From assembly GCA_020249025.1 (NCBI GenBank), contig JADCGM010000171.1, positions 1-31,948 on the forward strand: DNA of 31,948 nucleotides, written 5' to 3'. The notes beneath the pieces are model-generated. The model was not told the origin of the DNA and ran no database searches. It saw only the letters and a program-made list of their open reading frames with translations. The stretch comes from Alphaproteobacteria bacterium. GTDB taxonomy: Bacteria > Pseudomonadota > Alphaproteobacteria > Sphingomonadales > Sphingomonadaceae. Below are positions 354 to 5,117 of the stretch, piece by piece (the first letter of the stretch is position 1; each line of letters begins with the position of its first letter). The position numbers and the translations under genes were made by a program.

Positions 354-604
354 ACGATCAGCTCTATCCCGAGATCCCTGATGGCTTGCCGACCGAGCAG
401 CTGCAGGCACTTTGCCGGCGCTGGTCGACCTTTCGTGTTCAAATCCGGCGCGACGGCGACCTGGTCACCTGCCAAGCCGGGACTGACGACTGCCGGCCGA
501 AGTGGTCATCGCCAATCAAGGATGGCGACGTCCAGGCCGCGCGCCAGCGGGCAGCAAAGCACGCGGTCGACTACTGGCGCGGCGCTACGATCAGAGCCCA
601 CTGA
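347..604 (+). CDS. hypothetical protein (85 aa)
   Basis: GTG at 347 overlapping the previous stop; protein-like composition (LNDQLYPEIPDGLPTEQLQALCRRW...); convergent with the Dam-like gene, 14 nt overlap. Confidence 0.35.
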   Translation: MLNDQLYPEIPDGLPTEQLQALCRRWSTFRVQIRRDGDLVTCQAGTDDCRPKWSSPIKDGDVQAARQRAAKHAVDYWRGATIRAH

Positions 605-1451
605 ACAGCCCGCGGCCCGAAGGCTCGTCGAGCGCCTCCTGCGGAAGGTTCGAGATGATGAGCTCGCCAAAGGCCCGGCCTTCCCCGAGCATCCTCGTCG
701 CGATGTGGTAGACGACGTCGACCTCACGCATCGCAAAGCCGTCGAAGATCTCCCGCACCTCAGGCCGGTCATTGATCGACAGGATGAAGCACCCCTTCAG
801 CTCGCGCAGCTGGGCTGCCATCCGGGCAAAGTCGTCGGGCGAGAAGACGCCGTCCCCATAATCATCCTCGCAGCCCCAGTAAGGCGGATCGAGATAGAAA
901 AGGGTGTCGGCGTGATCGTACTTCGTGATGAAGACGTCGTAGCCCAGGCACTCGATCGTCACGCTCGACAACCGCGTGTGTGCCGCCTCGAGCATCGGGA
1001 CGAGCTTCGTCAGATCGAAGCCGGCCTGTGACCGGACGTCGACGCCGAAGGTGCGGCCCTTCACCTTCCCGCCCCAAGCAAGGCGCTGCAGGTAGAGGAA
1101 CCGCCCAGCCCGCTCGAGGTCCGTGCGGGTTGCAGGATCGACCTGCATCAGCCGCTCGAACTCGGCCCGCGAGGACAGCTGCCACTTCAGCGTGTCGAGG
1201 AACTGCGGATAGTGCCGCTGCAGGATCCGGAAGAGCGTCGCGACGTCGCGCGAGATGTCATTGATGACCTCGACGCTCGGCTTCAGCTCGCGGCGGAAGA
1301 ACATGCCGCCGGCGCCGACGAAGGGCTCGGCATAGCAGCGGTGAGGCACGCTCTCGATGATCGGGACGATTCGGCCTGCAAGGTTGCGCTTGCCGCCAAT
1401 GTAGCCGGCGAGGGGCAGCGCCCTGGGCGCCGGCGTGAAGCAATTCTCCAT
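591..1451 (-). CDS. DNA adenine methyltransferase, Dam/D12 class (alpha group)
   Basis: N-terminal GYIGGK, motif I EPFVGAGG, VINDIS, motif IV LFYLDPPY; typical orphan prophage methylase near the lysis end. Target sequence cannot be read from the sequence. Confidence 0.93.
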   Translation of the reverse strand: MENCFTPAPRALPLAGYIGGKRNLAGRIVPIIESVPHRCYAEPFVGAGGMFFRRELKPSVEVINDISRDVATLFRILQRHYPQFLDTLKWQLSSRAEFERLMQVDPATRTDLERAGRFLYLQRLAWGGKVKGRTFGVDVRSQAGFDLTKLVPMLEAAHTRLSSVTIECLGYDVFITKYDHADTLFYLDPPYWGCEDDYGDGVFSPDDFARMAAQLRELKGCFILSINDRPEVREIFDGFAMREVDVVYHIATRMLGEGRAFGELIISNLPQEALDEPSGRGLFSGL

Positions 1452-1901: not shown

Positions 1902-1910
1902 ATGGTCGGA
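1902..1910. repeat. target-site duplication, left copy (ATGGTCGGA)
   Basis: Identical to 4435-4443 and abuts the left TIR. Confidence 0.85.
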
Positions 1911-1935
1911 GGGATCTATATACATTCGTGACCCG

Positions 1936-1964
1936 TTGACGTGGGTCATTTAATCACCTATGTT
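1936..1964 (+). promoter_or_regulatory. transposase promoter
   Basis: TTGACG (1936-1941), 17 nt, TATGTT (1959-1964); the -35 is bracketed by inverted repeat TGACCC (1929-1934)/GGGTCA (1943-1948). Confidence 0.65.
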
Positions 1965-1990: not shown

Positions 1991-2902
1991 GTGACAATGC
2001 AGTTCGACACCCTATTCCAGATGATGGCGGCGTTCCCCGACGAGCAGTCGGCGATTGACCATTTCACTGCGATCCGGTGGAAGGACGGCGCGTTCTGCCC
2101 GTTGTGCGGCTCGACGAAGGTCTATCACTTTTCGGACAAGCGCACGCATAAGTGCGGCGACTGCCGCAAGCGCTTCTCCATCAAGGTCGGCACTGTTTTC
2201 GAGGACAGCAAGATCGAGCTGCGCAAGTGGCTCATCGCGATCTGGCTGATCACGTCGCACAAGAAGGGTATCGCATCGACGACGCTCGCGAAGGACCTTG
2301 GCGTAACGCAGAAGACCGCGTGGTTCATGCTTCATCGCCTGCGCCATGCGGCCCGCACCCAGTCGTTCAGCAAGCCGCTGGATGGTGAGGTCGAGATTGA
2401 TGAGACCTACGTCGGCGGCAAGGCGCACAACCGCCACAAGGGCGACCCCAAGAACGGCCCCGGCACGTCGGGCAAGACGGGCGTAATTGGCGCTATCAGC
2501 CGAGGCGGTCAGGCTGTCGCCACAGTCATTGACCGTCCGGACACTCAGACGCTCGACAGCTTCGCCCACGCCGTTGTTTCGCCGGACGCTGCCCTTGTCG
2601 CCACCGACGAGCATTCCGGCTACCGCCACCTTGGCCGGACGTTCAACCACGGCATCGTGCGCCACAGCGCGGGCGAGTTTCGCAAGGGCGACGCGCACAC
2701 AAATTCGATCGAAGGCTTTTGGTCGCTGCTAAAGCGCCAGATCATCGGCATTCACCACTGGATCAGCCCCAAGCATCTCCAGCGCTATGTTGACGAGGCG
2801 ACTTGGCGCTTCAACCTGCGGGAGATCGCCGAAGGCGAGCGTGTGAACTCTCTTCTGGCGAGCGCCGAGGGGCGGCTTCCTTACAAGGTGCTTATCGCAT
2901 GA
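1991..2902 (+). CDS. tnp: IS1595-family DDE transposase
   Basis: Zn ribbon CPLCGS...KCGDCRKRFS, HTH region, VEIDETYVGG, VATDEHSGY, HTNSIEGFWSLLKR; GGAG 8 nt before the GTG start. Confidence 0.96.
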   Translation: MTMQFDTLFQMMAAFPDEQSAIDHFTAIRWKDGAFCPLCGSTKVYHFSDKRTHKCGDCRKRFSIKVGTVFEDSKIELRKWLIAIWLITSHKKGIASTTLAKDLGVTQKTAWFMLHRLRHAARTQSFSKPLDGEVEIDETYVGGKAHNRHKGDPKNGPGTSGKTGVIGAISRGGQAVATVIDRPDTQTLDSFAHAVVSPDAALVATDEHSGYRHLGRTFNHGIVRHSAGEFRKGDAHTNSIEGFWSLLKRQIIGIHHWISPKHLQRYVDEATWRFNLREIAEGERVNSLLASAEGRLPYKVLIA

Positions 2903-3444
2903 ATGCTGGATCGCCTCGAAATCCTCCCTTCGCCCTAGATATGGACTTTGACGAAGCGTTACGGCGCTTTATCAAAACAGACCCGCGTGAGTTGCGCGGG
3001 GATACCGCAATGGCAACCGGGGGAGGCGCAACCCAGATGCTCACATGGTCCAAGAAGCTCTCGCAGACTGACGCCCAACAGCCGACGAGCGGTGGTATCG
3101 TTCCGTATCTCCGGCTCATCAGGGGCAGCCTGGGCAAGGAGAACTTTCAGACGTGGTTCCGAACCAATTTCTTCGACAATTTGGCATGGAAGCCCGGCAG
3201 CGTCGGCCAAGAGACCGGCGTCGAGGTTGCTGATGTGACGTTCGATGTGACGCTCAATGGCGTCAACATCGGCCAATATACGTTGATGGTTTCACACGGC
3301 CCGAATCGCCAAGTGAACAACAACACCCCCAACACTTGGCTTCATTGGGGTCCGTTGCAGCCGATCCTAAGCAAGAACAATTTCACGGGGCGTCGAGCGC
3401 TGCTTACGCGGCGTCCGGACGGCACCTACAGTCTGGCAATTTGA
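2899..3444 (+). CDS. IS passenger: short IS1595-associated peptide fused in frame to a putative B3/EcoRII-N-like DNA-binding domain (alternative start 3037)
   Basis: ATG overlaps the transposase stop (ATGA); second ATG at 3037 with GGGGAGG upstream; WSKKLSQTDAQ resembles the KxLS/TxxD start of B3-like domains. Fold assignment is inference. Confidence 0.7.
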   Translation: MNAGSPRNPPFALDMDFDEALRRFIKTDPRELRGDTAMATGGGATQMLTWSKKLSQTDAQQPTSGGIVPYLRLIRGSLGKENFQTWFRTNFFDNLAWKPGSVGQETGVEVADVTFDVTLNGVNIGQYTLMVSHGPNRQVNNNTPNTWLHWGPLQPILSKNNFTGRRALLTRRPDGTYSLAI

Positions 3445-4293
3445 CGCTTGGCCAGCGCTCGGTCCGACTGCCCAGCGGATCGCGGCGTCGAATTGGTCTT
3501 GGCGCTGCCATCCCACCTTGCGCGTTTCGCAGCCGCTAATCGCATGTAGCCGCTGCTCGGCGACTGCAAGGAGGTCGATCGTGCCCGCCTTGAACTCTTC
3601 AACACCATCATTGATTTCAATGCCGATGGCGTTGCGGCCTTCCGTCGCTGCGGCGACAAGGAAGCTGCCGGAGCCGAAGGCATTGTCGAGCACTAGGTCG
3701 CCGGGGTCGCTGTAGGTCCGAACCAGATACTGGCCGAGCCCGACCGGCTTCTGAGTCGAGTGATAGACGCGCCCCTCGCTTTCGGCGGTCTTGTAATAAA
3801 CTACATCGGTTGGATAGCGCCCGCCCTCCGACTTGATGTGTGCCGGCCGGAAGTCGCCGTATGAGCCGGTGAGCTGGGCCTTGCGAACGCCCTTATCGTA
3901 GGCCTCGCCTTCGCCCATCTGTGGGTTGTAGGTGGGTTGCTTGGGGTAGAAGACGCAGATGTCCTCGTGGCGACGGAGCGGCTGACGCTTCGCGTTAAGG
4001 AAGTTGGTGGGCTTCGATTTCACCCACGTGATCTTGTATTTGAACCAGTCTTCCTTGCTACAAATCAGCTTGGCCGTGAATGGCCCCTGCGAGGTGAGAA
4101 GGATCGCGCCGCTGGGCGCAAGTATGCGCTCATACTGCTGCCACAGATCGTCGAGCGGGATAAGGCTATCCCAGCGGTTCTGCGTCACACCATAAGGTAG
4201 ATCACAGAGGATCAGGTTGACCGAGCCGTCCGGCACAAACGCCAGCGCATCTAGGCAGTCCGCTTCCAGTAGCGCCACACGGGGGATAGCCAT
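3367..4293 (-). CDS. IS passenger: site-specific DNA methyltransferase, N6A/N4C beta class
   Basis: Motif IV ILCDLPYG precedes motif I DLVLDNAFGSGS; HSTQKPVGL; ATG 4293 with GAGGT RBS preferred over TTG 4338. Confidence 0.92.
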   Translation of the reverse strand: MAIPRVALLEADCLDALAFVPDGSVNLILCDLPYGVTQNRWDSLIPLDDLWQQYERILAPSGAILLTSQGPFTAKLICSKEDWFKYKITWVKSKPTNFLNAKRQPLRRHEDICVFYPKQPTYNPQMGEGEAYDKGVRKAQLTGSYGDFRPAHIKSEGGRYPTDVVYYKTAESEGRVYHSTQKPVGLGQYLVRTYSDPGDLVLDNAFGSGSFLVAAATEGRNAIGIEINDGVEEFKAGTIDLLAVAEQRLHAISGCETRKVGWQRQDQFDAAIRWAVGPSAGQASNCQTVGAVRTPRKQRSTPREIVLA

Positions 4294-4434
4294 AACGACC
4301 TCGCTTGCCAGAGCCGAAACGTCGGCGTCGGTAAGCAAGGATAGGTTAACCCATTCTGAGCGCTAGAGAATTTTTCCCGGCGTTTTCTGAGAGTTGGTCG
4401 ATTTTCGGATGGGTCACAGAGATATATAGCCACC

Positions 4435-4443
4435 ATGGTCGGA
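4435..4443. repeat. target-site duplication, right copy (ATGGTCGGA)
   Basis: Identical to 1902-1910 and abuts the right TIR. Confidence 0.85.
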
Positions 4444-4610
4444 GGGAAGCGGGGCCGGCTGCGCCGGCTCAAACCCATTGATTCGCTTCGGTAAGAAACT
4501 GCCGCTCGCAGCCGCGCGTTCTCCGCGCGATCCCCGAGGCAGTGGGATCGTGTCGTGCGGGCCGCGCCGCACCCCCTAAGGGCGCGGCCCGCTAGTCCGT
4601 TTGAGTCGCC

Positions 4611-5117
4611 TCAGGCGAGCTCGAAGTGAGGACTGTCGCTTTCACCGCGCTCGCGCGGCTTGCCATCCTTGTCCCAGTCAGCGCCCCAGCGAACACTGAC
4701 AGGCGCATGGCCATCCTTCGCGCGGCGCTCGTTGACGATCGCGGTCGCCTTCTCGATCGCCTTGGCGACCAGATCGAACGGCTTCGTCTCCTTCCAGTCG
4801 TAGGGCGCAGGAAGGAGGTCGACAGCGTGACCGTAGCCGTCGGCCTGCTTTACGTGCTTCGAGGCCAGCGGATCGCGGAGCCAGGTCACGCGCGCCTCGC
4901 CCGGCCGAGCGTACTTTTCGGGCACGCCCATAGCCCGGCAGTGCGCCGCGGTGCGCCCCTTTCCGAAGTACTCCCAGCACTTCTCGCGGGTGCGGACACC
5001 CTCGACGACCATGAAGTCGACCTCGCTGACGCCGATCGCCGTCTCGACGATCTCGACCAGGACCGGATGCACGTCAGTCAGACGCTTCTTGGACTTCTCG
5101 CTCAGTACGAAAGCCAT
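4611..5117 (-). CDS. endolysin, M15-family Zn peptidase (T5-like L-Ala-D-Glu peptidase type)
   Basis: LSEKSKKRLTDVHP start, EGVRT, SKH, HAVD, RWGADW, DSPHFEL motifs. Confidence 0.92.
   Translation of the reverse strand: MAFVLSEKSKKRLTDVHPVLVEIVETAIGVSEVDFMVVEGVRTREKCWEYFGKGRTAAHCRAMGVPEKYARPGEARVTWLRDPLASKHVKQADGYGHAVDLLPAPYDWKETKPFDLVAKAIEKATAIVNERRAKDGHAPVSVRWGADWDKDGKPRERGESDSPHFELA

What the first reader, a model, noticed from the sequence alone, without database searches (positions are those of the whole stretch)
2899..3444. Stand-alone B3/EcoRII-N-like domain fused to an IS-associated peptide, with a second internal start
Seen: the ORF is coupled to the transposase stop, begins with FALDMDFDEALRRFIKTDPREL, then has a strong GGGGAGG RBS before ATG 3037 (MLTWSKKLSQTDAQ...SHGPNR...WLHWG...RRPDGTYSLAI, 135 aa). 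No PD-(D/E)xK, HNH or HKD motif is visible. Inference: the 135-aa part resembles the DNA-binding domains of PLD-type or EcoRII-type restriction enzymes, here without a nuclease, and two isoforms are possible. It could be a methylation-sensitive reader, a target-site guide for the transposase, or a restriction decoy.
Basis: inference. Interest (0 to 1): 0.65.

Follow-up and report, generated by a model that had tools for sequence, protein, structure and literature searches.

The report
Nuclease-free B3 DNA reader on transposon
This gene encodes a small DNA-binding protein that is the recognition half of a BfiI-type restriction enzyme without its cutting half; it travels with a DNA methyltransferase as cargo of a jumping element inside a prophage, and what a "reader without scissors" does there is unknown.

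Summary
ORF 2899-3444 starts on an ATGA overlap with the stop of an IS1595-family transposase. It has a conserved N-terminal peptide, a disordered linker and a 135-aa core.

The core folds with high confidence as a B3 / EcoRII-N / BfiI-C DNA-binding pseudobarrel: the top 13 structural matches all have this fold (Z 9.3-5.2), and the next match scores 3.8. By sequence profile the core is homologous to the C-terminal domain of about 400-aa proteins. [quoted passage not shown] The window protein has no nuclease domain.

The gene is not alone. With a beta-class N6/N4 DNA methyltransferase it is one of two passenger genes of a 2.5-kb IS1595 "transporter IS". That element has inverted repeats, a target duplication and a second copy in the same genome, and it lies in a prophage.

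Close orthologues occur in two settings only, always with the orthologous methylase:
- the same transposon, as the long form;
- a four-gene Type IIG restriction-modification operon, as a 136-aa short form that starts where the window's internal ATG 3037 lies.

Function is inferred: a sequence reader working with the methylase. The first-stage reader also noted the whole element separately on this same DNA.

The parts
1902..1910 (.). Left target-site duplication (ATGGTCGGA; 8-9 bp)
   Evidence: An exact 13-nt direct repeat lies at 1902-1914 and 4435-4447. The ends were defined by comparison with the second copy and with other elements. Sister elements have clean 8-bp duplications: TTGTAGAA in L004 and ATTTTCAA in L010.
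1911..1934 (+). Left terminal inverted repeat (GGGATCTATATAC...GTGACCC)
   Evidence: It pairs with 4411-4434. The pattern GGnnnCTATATA-N5-GTGACCC is shared by L003, L004 and L010; L006 keeps only the GG..CTATATAC part.
1936..1964 (+). Sigma-70-like promoter for the transposase/B3 transcript (TTGACG-17-TATGTT), lying within and just downstream of the palindrome GTGACCC..GGGTCA
   Evidence: 9 of 12 hexamer matches. The region is conserved in the left-end alignment. Function is inferred.
1991..2902 (+). IS1595-family (ISXO2-like) DDE transposase, 303 aa
   Evidence: Pfam DDE_Tnp_IS1595 at 1e-38 and Zn_ribbon_IS1595 at 4e-11. NCBIfam transpos_IS1595 at 1e-58.
2899..3444 (+). Target gene, long form (181 aa): N-peptide, linker and B3-like core
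2899..3036 (+). N-terminal extension: conserved acidic peptide P(F/L)xLDMxFxEALxRFxxTxPxE (predicted helices at residues 17-26 and 29-32) plus a disordered linker
   Evidence: Alignment A2. pLDDT is about 70 for the helices and below 50 for residues 34-43. pI is 5.0. The peptide is present only in transposon-borne copies.
3019..3039 (+). Internal ribosome-binding site GGGGGAGG and ATG 3037
   Evidence: An equivalent SD plus start codon is present in seven of the eight other transposon-type copies; the fossil L005 has only the ATG. The position coincides with the start of operon-borne orthologues.
3037..3444 (+). B3-like DNA-binding pseudobarrel core (135 aa, pI 10)
   Evidence: Structural matches at Z 9.3-5.2, all B3-type folds. 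Profile homology to the C-terminal domains of PLD nucleases.
3367..4293 (-). Partner beta-class N6/N4 DNA methyltransferase (second passenger gene). Its 3' end overlaps the B3 gene's 3' end by 78 nt.
   Evidence: Pfam N6_N4_Mtase at 2e-24. PADLOC MTase_II PDLC03251 at 9e-56. Best solved relatives are M.RsrI and M.MboIIA. It is 56-75% identical to the methylase next to every orthologue.
4411..4434 (-). Right terminal inverted repeat
   Evidence: A second copy of this end on contig C61 is identical to window 4308-4434 and diverges immediately after 4434.
4435..4443 (.). Right target-site duplication

Best explanation
SHOWN. The gene encodes a nuclease-free, free-standing B3-like DNA-binding pseudobarrel. 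By sequence it is related to the C-terminal recognition domain of PLD-type restriction endonucleases with the BfiI / NgoFVII architecture. With a beta-class DNA methyltransferase it forms a conserved two-gene module. Here the module is the cargo of a complete 2.5-kb IS1595-family transporter IS that has recently moved and sits in a prophage. Elsewhere the same module is part of a Type IIG restriction-modification operon: RHH regulator, methylase, 910-aa Type IIG enzyme, short B3 protein.

INFERRED. The only invariant partner is the methylase, and in every characterised relative the B3 domain reads the site that the cognate methylase blocks. I therefore propose that the protein grips, with its N- and C-arm cleft, the unmethylated form of the methylase's target sequence. 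It would then act as the methylase's site-reader partner, occupying or marking unmodified sites so that they are shielded from the cognate nuclease and/or methylated promptly. That is a restriction-alleviation-like role. It is useful to a restriction operon as a safety device, and useful to a transposon or phage entering a cell that has that restriction system.

The acidic N-terminal peptide and the translational coupling to the transposase are transposon-specific additions. The internal start at 3037 would yield the ancestral short form.
For: - Fold: the model has pLDDT 84 overall and above 90 in the core. Foldseek's top hits are EcoRII-N, BfiI-C, UbaLAI-B3, ARF and VAL1. In the exhaustive structural search, ranks 1-13 are all B3 folds, then the score drops to Z 3.8.
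- Ancestry: 78 of the best 150 family representatives are longer than 300 aa, with the domain at the C-terminus. Of the 77 scanned, 61 match PLDc_2 and 24 match RE_NgoFVII. Their profile hits BfiI at 1e-6 and R.NgoAVII at 0.012. Two genomic examples lie tail-to-tail with M.Eco57I-like methylases.
- Module: the orthologous methylase is adjacent in every locus that extends far enough, 9 transposon-type and 6 operon-type.
- Independence from transposition: locus L005 has lost the transposase and the inverted repeats and has a stop codon in the N-peptide, yet keeps an intact core and methylase between housekeeping genes. Operon-type copies have no transposase at all.
- The segment TDAQQxT(S/T)GG(I/L)VPYLRL, which by alignment range falls roughly on the BfiI N-arm, is almost invariant across both settings but variable in the wider family (arm limits from PMC4267654). 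This fits one shared DNA specificity.
- The core is basic, pI 10.
Against: - No binding, methylation sensitivity or protein-protein contact was or could be tested here.
- The methylase has a normal-sized variable region, so it does not obviously need a recognition partner.
- No shared operator or site motif was found between the two settings.
- The operon already has an RHH regulator, which leaves the role of the B3 protein there unexplained.
- The tight coupling to the transposase, and an N-peptide found only on the transposon, point at least partly toward a transposition-related role.
- The residue-level mapping to the DNA-binding arms is only approximate, from alignment ranges.
Confidence: 0.45

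Rival explanations
1. Transposition accessory. The long form docks on the transposase through its N-terminal peptide, and its B3 core then either steers insertion toward particular (for example unmethylated, newly arrived) DNA or represses transposition.
For: - The start overlaps or lies within a few bases of the transposase stop in every copy that still has a complete transposase.
- The N-peptide is conserved in all transposon-borne copies and absent from operon-borne ones.
- The peptide carries a stop codon in the one copy that lost the transposase.
- A natural in-frame fusion joins the transposase's zinc-ribbon N-terminus to N-peptide plus B3 (P0025 / L016).
- Two of the copies lie in viral DNA (window prophage; L010 from IMG/VR).
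Against: - Orthologues function in operons with no transposase.
- The core and methylase persist after loss of the transposase (L005).
- No common motif lies near the six insertion sites compared, although power is low.
- The N-peptide shows no significant similarity to any partner protein.
- Passenger genes of IS1595-family transporter IS are by definition not part of the transposition machinery (TnCentral preprint).
Confidence: 0.2
2. Transcriptional controller. The protein is a B3-fold analogue of restriction-modification C-proteins. It binds an operator in the element and sets methylase and/or transposase expression, possibly sensing how much of the genome is still unmethylated.
For: - Plant B3 domains are transcription factors.
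- A conserved inverted pair CTGAG...CTCAG (CTAAG...CTTAG in L006) lies upstream of the methylase in four of the five copies aligned; the window has CTGAG twice in direct order.
- The transposase promoter lies next to and partly within a palindrome.
Against: - The operon-type relatives already have an RHH regulator with its own conserved operator, and that operator shares nothing with the transposon's non-coding regions.
- The palindrome at the transposase promoter repeats the inverted-repeat core, so it is more simply a transposase site.
Confidence: 0.15
3. Nuclease-free 'restriction' or addiction module. The reader binds unmethylated sites tightly enough to block replication or transcription, and the methylase is the antidote. 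The pair would stabilise the transposon or exclude unmethylated invaders.
For: - The tail-to-tail reader/methylase layout mirrors that of the PLD-B3 restriction enzyme/methylase pairs.
- The pair is retained after the transposase decays (L005, L015, L016).
Against: - It would be redundant in the Type IIG operons, which already have a nuclease.
- The gene is translationally coupled to a transposase, which is usually made at very low level.
- No toxicity data exist.
Confidence: 0.1
4. Functionless leftover of a restriction gene that was decapitated when the transposon captured it.
For: The domain is normally the C-terminal half of a nuclease, and capture of neighbouring DNA is how transporter IS are thought to arise.
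Against: - The reading frame is intact in 17 loci at 42-57% identity.
- 42 of the best 150 family clusters are free-standing 125-160-aa proteins.
- Operon-type copies have their own SD and start.
Confidence: 0.05

Closest known systems
BfiI C-terminal domain (PDB 2c1l, 3zi5) and the R.NgoAVII / NgoFVII B3-like domain (4rct, 4rd5)
   Same: Same pseudobarrel fold: Z 9.1 over 116 residues to BfiI and Z 5.7 to NgoAVII. The wider sequence family has the same two-domain layout, N-terminal PLD nuclease plus C-terminal reader, and its PLD part matches BfiI by sequence. Those enzymes pair with a methylase that blocks the site they read.
   Different: The window protein has no PLD domain or any other nuclease. 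Its reader domain is not detected by Pfam BfiI_DBD, EcoRII-N or B3 models. The partner methylase is beta-class, not a C5 methylase or an Eco57I-like gamma-class one.
EcoRII N-terminal effector domain (1na6, 3hqf) and UbaLAI B3 domain (5o63)
   Same: Same fold (Z 7.6 and 7.0). In those enzymes it is a reader of the unmethylated target site that does not itself cut.
   Different: There the domain is covalently joined to a PD-(D/E)xK nuclease, which it autoinhibits. Here it is a separate polypeptide.
Plant B3 transcription factors (FUS3 6j9b, ARF1 4ldx, RAV1 1wid, VAL1)
   Same: FUS3 is the best structural match (Z 9.3). These are DNA-binding modules with no enzymatic partner in the same chain.
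   Different: They are eukaryotic, 7-14% identical, and have no link to methyltransferases or mobile elements.
IS1595-family transporter IS (tIS); by end sequence and size probably the ISNwi1 subgroup with passenger genes (subgroup assignment from memory of ISfinder, not tested)
   Same: DDE_Tnp_IS1595 transposase with zinc ribbon, short terminal inverted repeats, 8-bp target duplication, and passenger genes inside the repeats. The tIS concept is described in the TnCentral preprint.
   Different: In the literature I could search I found no record of this cargo, a methylase plus a B3 reader. One passenger is translationally coupled to the transposase.
Eco57I-type Type IIG systems (a bifunctional restriction/methylase enzyme plus a separate methylase)
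   Same: The operon-type relatives have exactly this pair (PADLOC REase_MTase_IIG at 1e-237, plus MTase_II).
   Different: They carry two extra genes, an RHH regulator and the short B3 protein. The window element has kept only the methylase and the B3 protein.

Membership tests
B3-like DNA-binding pseudobarrel fold (EcoRII-N / BfiI-C / NgoAVII-B3 / plant B3) | Open beta-barrel with two helices, superimposable on solved members | tested here: met
   Core pLDDT is above 90. Ranks 1-13 of the exhaustive structural search are all this fold: Z 9.3-5.2, 91-116 residues aligned, rmsd 2.9-4.1. The next match scores Z 3.8. Foldseek gives the same families.
B3-like DNA-binding pseudobarrel fold (EcoRII-N / BfiI-C / NgoAVII-B3 / plant B3) | N-arm and C-arm forming a basic DNA-gripping cleft with clamp Lys/Arg | tested here: inconclusive
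   Only alignment ranges were available, no coordinates. By interpolation the conserved block at residues 57-73 falls on the BfiI N-arm (BfiI residues 210-231; PMC4267654). K52, R72, R88 and R137 are invariant. The core has pI 10.
B3-like DNA-binding pseudobarrel fold (EcoRII-N / BfiI-C / NgoAVII-B3 / plant B3) | Sequence-specific binding of double-stranded DNA | not testable with these tools
   Needs EMSA or SELEX.
Pfam sequence families B3 / EcoRII-N / BfiI_DBD | Match to the curated profile | tested here: not met
   No Pfam family matched at E <= 1. A family profile found no solved relative by sequence. The only lead is an ESM Atlas neighbour cluster in which 13% of members carry BfiI_DBD, score 0.88. 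I therefore file the protein under the fold, as a sequence family without a model.
PLD-type restriction endonuclease (BfiI / NgoFVII-like) | N-terminal HxK PLD nuclease domain | tested here: not met
   The protein has 181 residues and no PLD match, whereas 61 of 77 long relatives have one. It is a relative of the recognition domain, not a member of the enzyme family.
IS1595-family transporter IS | IS1595-type DDE transposase with N-terminal zinc ribbon | tested here: met
IS1595-family transporter IS | Terminal inverted repeats and 8-bp target duplication enclosing transposase plus passenger genes | tested here: met
   Inverted repeats lie at 1911-1934 and 4411-4434, with a duplication of 8-9 bp. 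Four sister elements of 2517-2533 bp have the same ends; two of them have clean 8-bp duplications.
IS1595-family transporter IS | Evidence of mobility (more than one copy or site) | tested here: met
   The second right end on contig C61 is identical up to the terminus and then diverges. Insertion sites differ in each genome. In one isolate assembly the element is a contig of its own (L006).
Restriction-modification controller (C) proteins | Small helix-turn-helix (Xre-type) dimer binding a C-box upstream of its own gene | tested here: not met
   The fold is a beta-barrel, not HTH. In operon-type loci the gene lies last, and a separate RHH protein with its own repeat operator lies first.

The most novel reading that the evidence does not exclude
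A mobile 'epigenetic reader-writer' module. The methylase writes a mark, and a nuclease-free restriction-enzyme recognition domain reads its absence. The transposon uses this to tell unmarked (newly arrived or newly replicated) DNA from marked DNA. It could do so by guiding or timing its own transposition through the N-peptide/transposase contact, or by blocking unmarked DNA by occupancy alone. This would be a restriction-like self/non-self system, or a target-choice system, that works without cutting.
Probability: 0.15. Interest if true: 0.8.

Novelty: new variant of a known kind. Interest (0 to 1): 0.58.

Why it matters
B3-type readers in bacteria are known only as parts of restriction enzymes. 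It keeps a strict partnership with a methyltransferase in two very different settings, a restriction operon and a transposon that hops into phages.

This gives a concrete, testable case of what a restriction system's recognition module does once separated from cleavage. It also gives a new type of transporter-IS cargo, which could matter for how phages and transposons cope with Type IIG restriction. It may bear on the long-standing idea that plant B3 factors derive from bacterial restriction-enzyme domains, because free-standing bacterial forms are the expected intermediate.

Tried and rejected
- N-peptide outside this family: a database search restricted to residues 1-46 returned only the window's own protein. 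Short-query BLAST against the transposase, both methylases, the Type IIG enzyme and the RHH protein gave nothing significant; the best was E 0.6.
- N-peptide as a remnant of the PLD-B3 linker: no convincing alignment.
- Programmed frameshift fusing transposase and B3: the B3 frame is the -1 frame, but it is open upstream for only 3-240 nt depending on the copy, and I saw no slippery heptamer in the window sequence. Rejected.
- Sequence link of the reader domain to solved structures: the narrow profile gave only chance antibody hits, and the broad profile matched through the PLD part only.
- Viral predicted-structure library: no match.
- Shared insertion-site motif: none beyond GC-rich k-mers in six sites.
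- Operator shared between transposon and operon contexts: none.
- Type IIG enzyme in the window's own genome (68% complete) or in 401 genomes of the class: not found. This can neither support nor refute an anti-restriction role.
- Free-standing family in 400 other genomes of the phylum: not found. The close form was found in 0 of 400 other genomes of the class. The family is rare in reference genomes.
- The alignment of diverse short forms was too variable for a locus scan.
- The original IS1595 family paper (Siguier et al. 2009) is not held, so the ISNwi1 subgroup assignment rests on my memory.
Full report
**What is there.** The window is contig C81 of a 68%-complete metagenome-assembled genome. 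Its left end is the lysis/tail end of a prophage. In order it holds:
- tRNA-Thr at 5-79;
- a D12 Dam-like methylase at 591-1451 (minus strand);
- a 76-aa predicted membrane protein;
- the region of interest;
- an M15-type endolysin candidate at 4611-5117 (minus strand), followed by further large ORFs.

The region of interest holds three genes:
- an IS1595/ISXO2-type transposase, 1991-2902 (Pfam 1e-38, NCBIfam 1e-58);
- the target ORF, 2899-3444;
- on the other strand, a beta-class N6/N4 DNA methyltransferase, 3367-4293 (Pfam 2e-24; nearest solved relatives M.RsrI and M.MboIIA).

**The observation.** The ATG at 2899 overlaps the transposase stop as ATGA. The N-terminus reads ...PPFALDMDFDEALRRFIKTDPREL. 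GGGGGAGG lies at 3019-3026, 10 nt before ATG 3037. A 135-aa product runs from there. No known nuclease family or any other profile matches.

**The unit is a transposon.** A 13-nt exact direct repeat (1902-1914 and 4435-4447) flanks imperfect inverted repeats at 1911-1934 and 4411-4434. Three lines of evidence show the unit moves:
- A second copy of the right end starts contig C61. It is identical to window 4308-4434 and unrelated beyond 4434, which fixes the terminus and shows at least two insertion sites in this population.
- Four other elements have the same gene order inside the same kind of ends, at sizes of 2517-2533 bp: two Novosphingobium, one Roseobacter isolate in which the element is a contig of its own, and one IMG/VR viral contig. 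The three closest share GGnnnCTATATA-N5-GTGACCC. Two of the elements have clean 8-bp target duplications.
- The architecture, an IS with passenger genes inside its repeats, is the 'transporter IS' described for the IS1595 and IS66 families (TnCentral preprint).

The B3 gene and the methylase are therefore cargo. The first-stage reader also noted the whole element separately (finding e1-5298631). I reached the same boundaries independently.

**Fold.** I predicted the structure with a 16-sequence alignment. Overall pLDDT is 84, and residues 47-181 are above 90. The N-peptide forms two short helices at about 70, and residues 34-43 are disordered. Foldseek against the PDB lists EcoRII-N, BfiI-C, UbaLAI-B3, ARF1, VAL1, LlaJI.R1-N and NgoAVII-B3. 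The search that does not depend on Foldseek puts thirteen B3-type pseudobarrels at ranks 1-13:

| Match | Z |
|---|---|
| FUS3 | 9.3 |
| BfiI | 9.1 |
| ARF1 | 8.9 |
| EcoRII-N | 7.6 |
| RAV1 | 7.5 |
| UbaLAI | 7.0 |
| LlaJI.R1 | 6.5 |
| NgoAVII | 5.7 |
| next, unrelated fold | 3.8 |

(All.) The fold claim is as solid as a prediction can make it.

**Ancestry.** A profile of the family finds 834 cluster representatives at E <= 1e-3. Of the best 150:
- 78 are longer than 300 aa and carry the domain at the C-terminus;
- 42 are free-standing proteins of 125-160 aa;
- 12 are 161-200 aa, the size range of the N-extended form.

Of 77 long forms, 61 match the PLD-like domain and 24 match the NgoFVII nuclease domain. 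Their profile hits BfiI (1e-6) and R.NgoAVII (0.012) through that nuclease half. Two genomic examples lie tail-to-tail with M.Eco57I-like methylases, which is an ordinary two-gene restriction-modification system. The window protein is therefore the recognition half of a BfiI-architecture enzyme family, without the nuclease.

No Pfam model covers this reader domain. All named database members I looked up are 'hypothetical protein'.

**Two genomic settings, one constant partner.** Across 17 related loci I mapped the neighbours by tblastn and profile scans.

- **Class A** (window, L003, L004, L006, L010, L014, L015, L016, L005). Gene order is transposase, then the long B3 form, then the methylase on the opposite strand. 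Three copies are decayed. L015 has lost the DDE half of the transposase. L016 is an in-frame fusion of the transposase zinc-ribbon N-terminus to N-peptide plus B3 (P0025). L005 has lost the transposase and the repeats and lies between RNase D and exopolyphosphatase genes.
- **Class B** (L007-L009, L018-L022). This is a co-directional operon of four genes: an RHH protein, the orthologous methylase (56-63% identical to the window's), a 910-aa Type IIG restriction/methylase enzyme (PADLOC 1e-237 over its full length), and a 136-aa short B3 protein.

The methylase is the only partner present in both classes. The block TDAQQxT(S/T)GG(I/L)VPYLRL is almost invariant across both classes but variable among the wider free-standing family. 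By alignment range it lies roughly on the N-arm that contacts bases in BfiI. This suggests one DNA specificity shared with the co-inherited methylase.

**The two starts.** The long start at 2899 is real, because the residues before Met15 are conserved and one orthologue has Leu there. The internal start is also likely to be used, for four reasons:
- Seven of the eight other class A copies have a purine-rich SD (GGGGA, AGGGA, GGAAGG and the like) upstream of an ATG, GTG or TTG that lies 2-3 codons before the core Trp. The spacing is 5-10 nt in most copies but irregular in L004 and L010.
- This holds even though the linker protein sequence is not conserved.
- Class B genes begin at exactly that position behind GGGAGG.
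- In L005 a stop codon in the N-peptide leaves the internal ATG as the only route to an otherwise intact core.

Two isoforms are therefore well supported by comparison but not demonstrated.

**Mechanism.**
- Shown: the fold, the ancestry, the absence of a nuclease, the cargo status and the obligatory methylase partner.
- Inferred: the protein reads the unmethylated form of the methylase's site and works with the methylase, shielding or marking unmodified sites. Such a restriction-alleviation-like role would serve both a restriction operon and a mobile element entering a cell that carries that operon. I put this at about 0.45.
- Rivals: a transposition accessory acting through the transposon-specific N-peptide (0.2); a transcriptional controller (0.15); a nuclease-free addiction or exclusion pair (0.1); a dead remnant (0.05).

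The N-peptide pattern favours at least some link to the transposase: it is present only with the transposon and broken in the copy that lost the transposase. The persistence of core plus methylase without any transposase shows that the core's job is not transposition itself.

**Limits.** I had no model coordinates, so there is no residue-level mapping to the DNA-binding arms. The methylase motif is unknown. No complex prediction was possible. The family is rare in reference genomes: 0 of 400 other genomes of the class have the close form, and 0 of 400 of the phylum have the free-standing family.

**Verdict.** This is a genuine, uncharacterised, free-standing B3-type reader that forms a conserved module with a methylase and rides a transporter IS. 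It is a new variant of known kinds and moderately to clearly interesting. Its biology is open and readily testable.

Noticed in passing
L016:183-1226 (protein P0025, 348 aa): A natural in-frame fusion. The N-terminal zinc-ribbon/HTH part of the IS1595 transposase, without the DDE domain, is joined to the N-peptide and B3 core, with the methylase still downstream. It could be a domesticated repressor-like derivative of the element.
   Followed up: partly
L005:5926-7403: A fossil of the module between RNase D and exopolyphosphatase genes in a Rhodobiaceae MAG. The transposase and inverted repeats are gone and the N-peptide carries a stop codon, but the B3 core and methylase are intact.
   Followed up: partly
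L007:1988-6405; also L008, L009, L020-L022: A four-gene Type IIG restriction-modification operon (RHH, beta-class methylase, 910-aa Type IIG enzyme, 136-aa B3 protein). A conserved repeat, GCACCACTCCGGTGCAA-N-ATGGTGCAA, lies upstream of the RHH gene and is a likely operator. In L009 a DndB gene lies nearby and in L007 a serine recombinase, suggesting a defence island.
   Followed up: partly
window 1926-1952: The transposase promoter's -35 box (TTGACG) lies inside a palindrome, GTGACCC-N8-GGGTCA, which repeats the core of the terminal inverted repeat. It is conserved in L004 and L010 and partly in L003. It is probably a transposase autoregulation site.
   Followed up: partly
window 4352-4395 and the equivalent right ends of L003, L004, L010, L006: A conserved pair of CTGAG / CTCAG pentamers (CTAAG / CTTAG in L006) about 35 bp apart lies between the right inverted repeat and the methylase start. 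It may be an operator or a 5'-UTR hairpin.
   Followed up: no
window 3367-3444: In this copy only, the methylase reading frame runs about 26 codons past the end of homology and overlaps the 3' end of the B3 gene in antisense by 78 nt. Sister elements have a gap of about 10-80 bp instead.
   Followed up: partly
window 1902-1914 / 4435-4447: The direct repeat is 13 nt, longer than the 8-bp duplication of sister elements. The extra GGGA matches the first four bases of the left inverted repeat. This is either coincidence or microhomology at the target.
   Followed up: no
window 591-1451 (minus strand): The prophage carries its own D12-class Dam-like methylase in addition to the transposon-borne beta-class methylase, so this prophage encodes two DNA methyltransferases.
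   Followed up: no
G000 contig C61:1-127 (L002): A second copy of the transposon's right end sits at a contig edge, followed by a G-rich repetitive flank (GGGAGGGGTAGGGGAGGGGG). The assembly breaks inside the element.
   Followed up: partly
proteins P0075 and three others in alignment A6: A minority of long family members carry DUF6575 instead of a PLD domain in front of the B3-like domain. This is a second, uncharacterised fusion partner.
   Followed up: no
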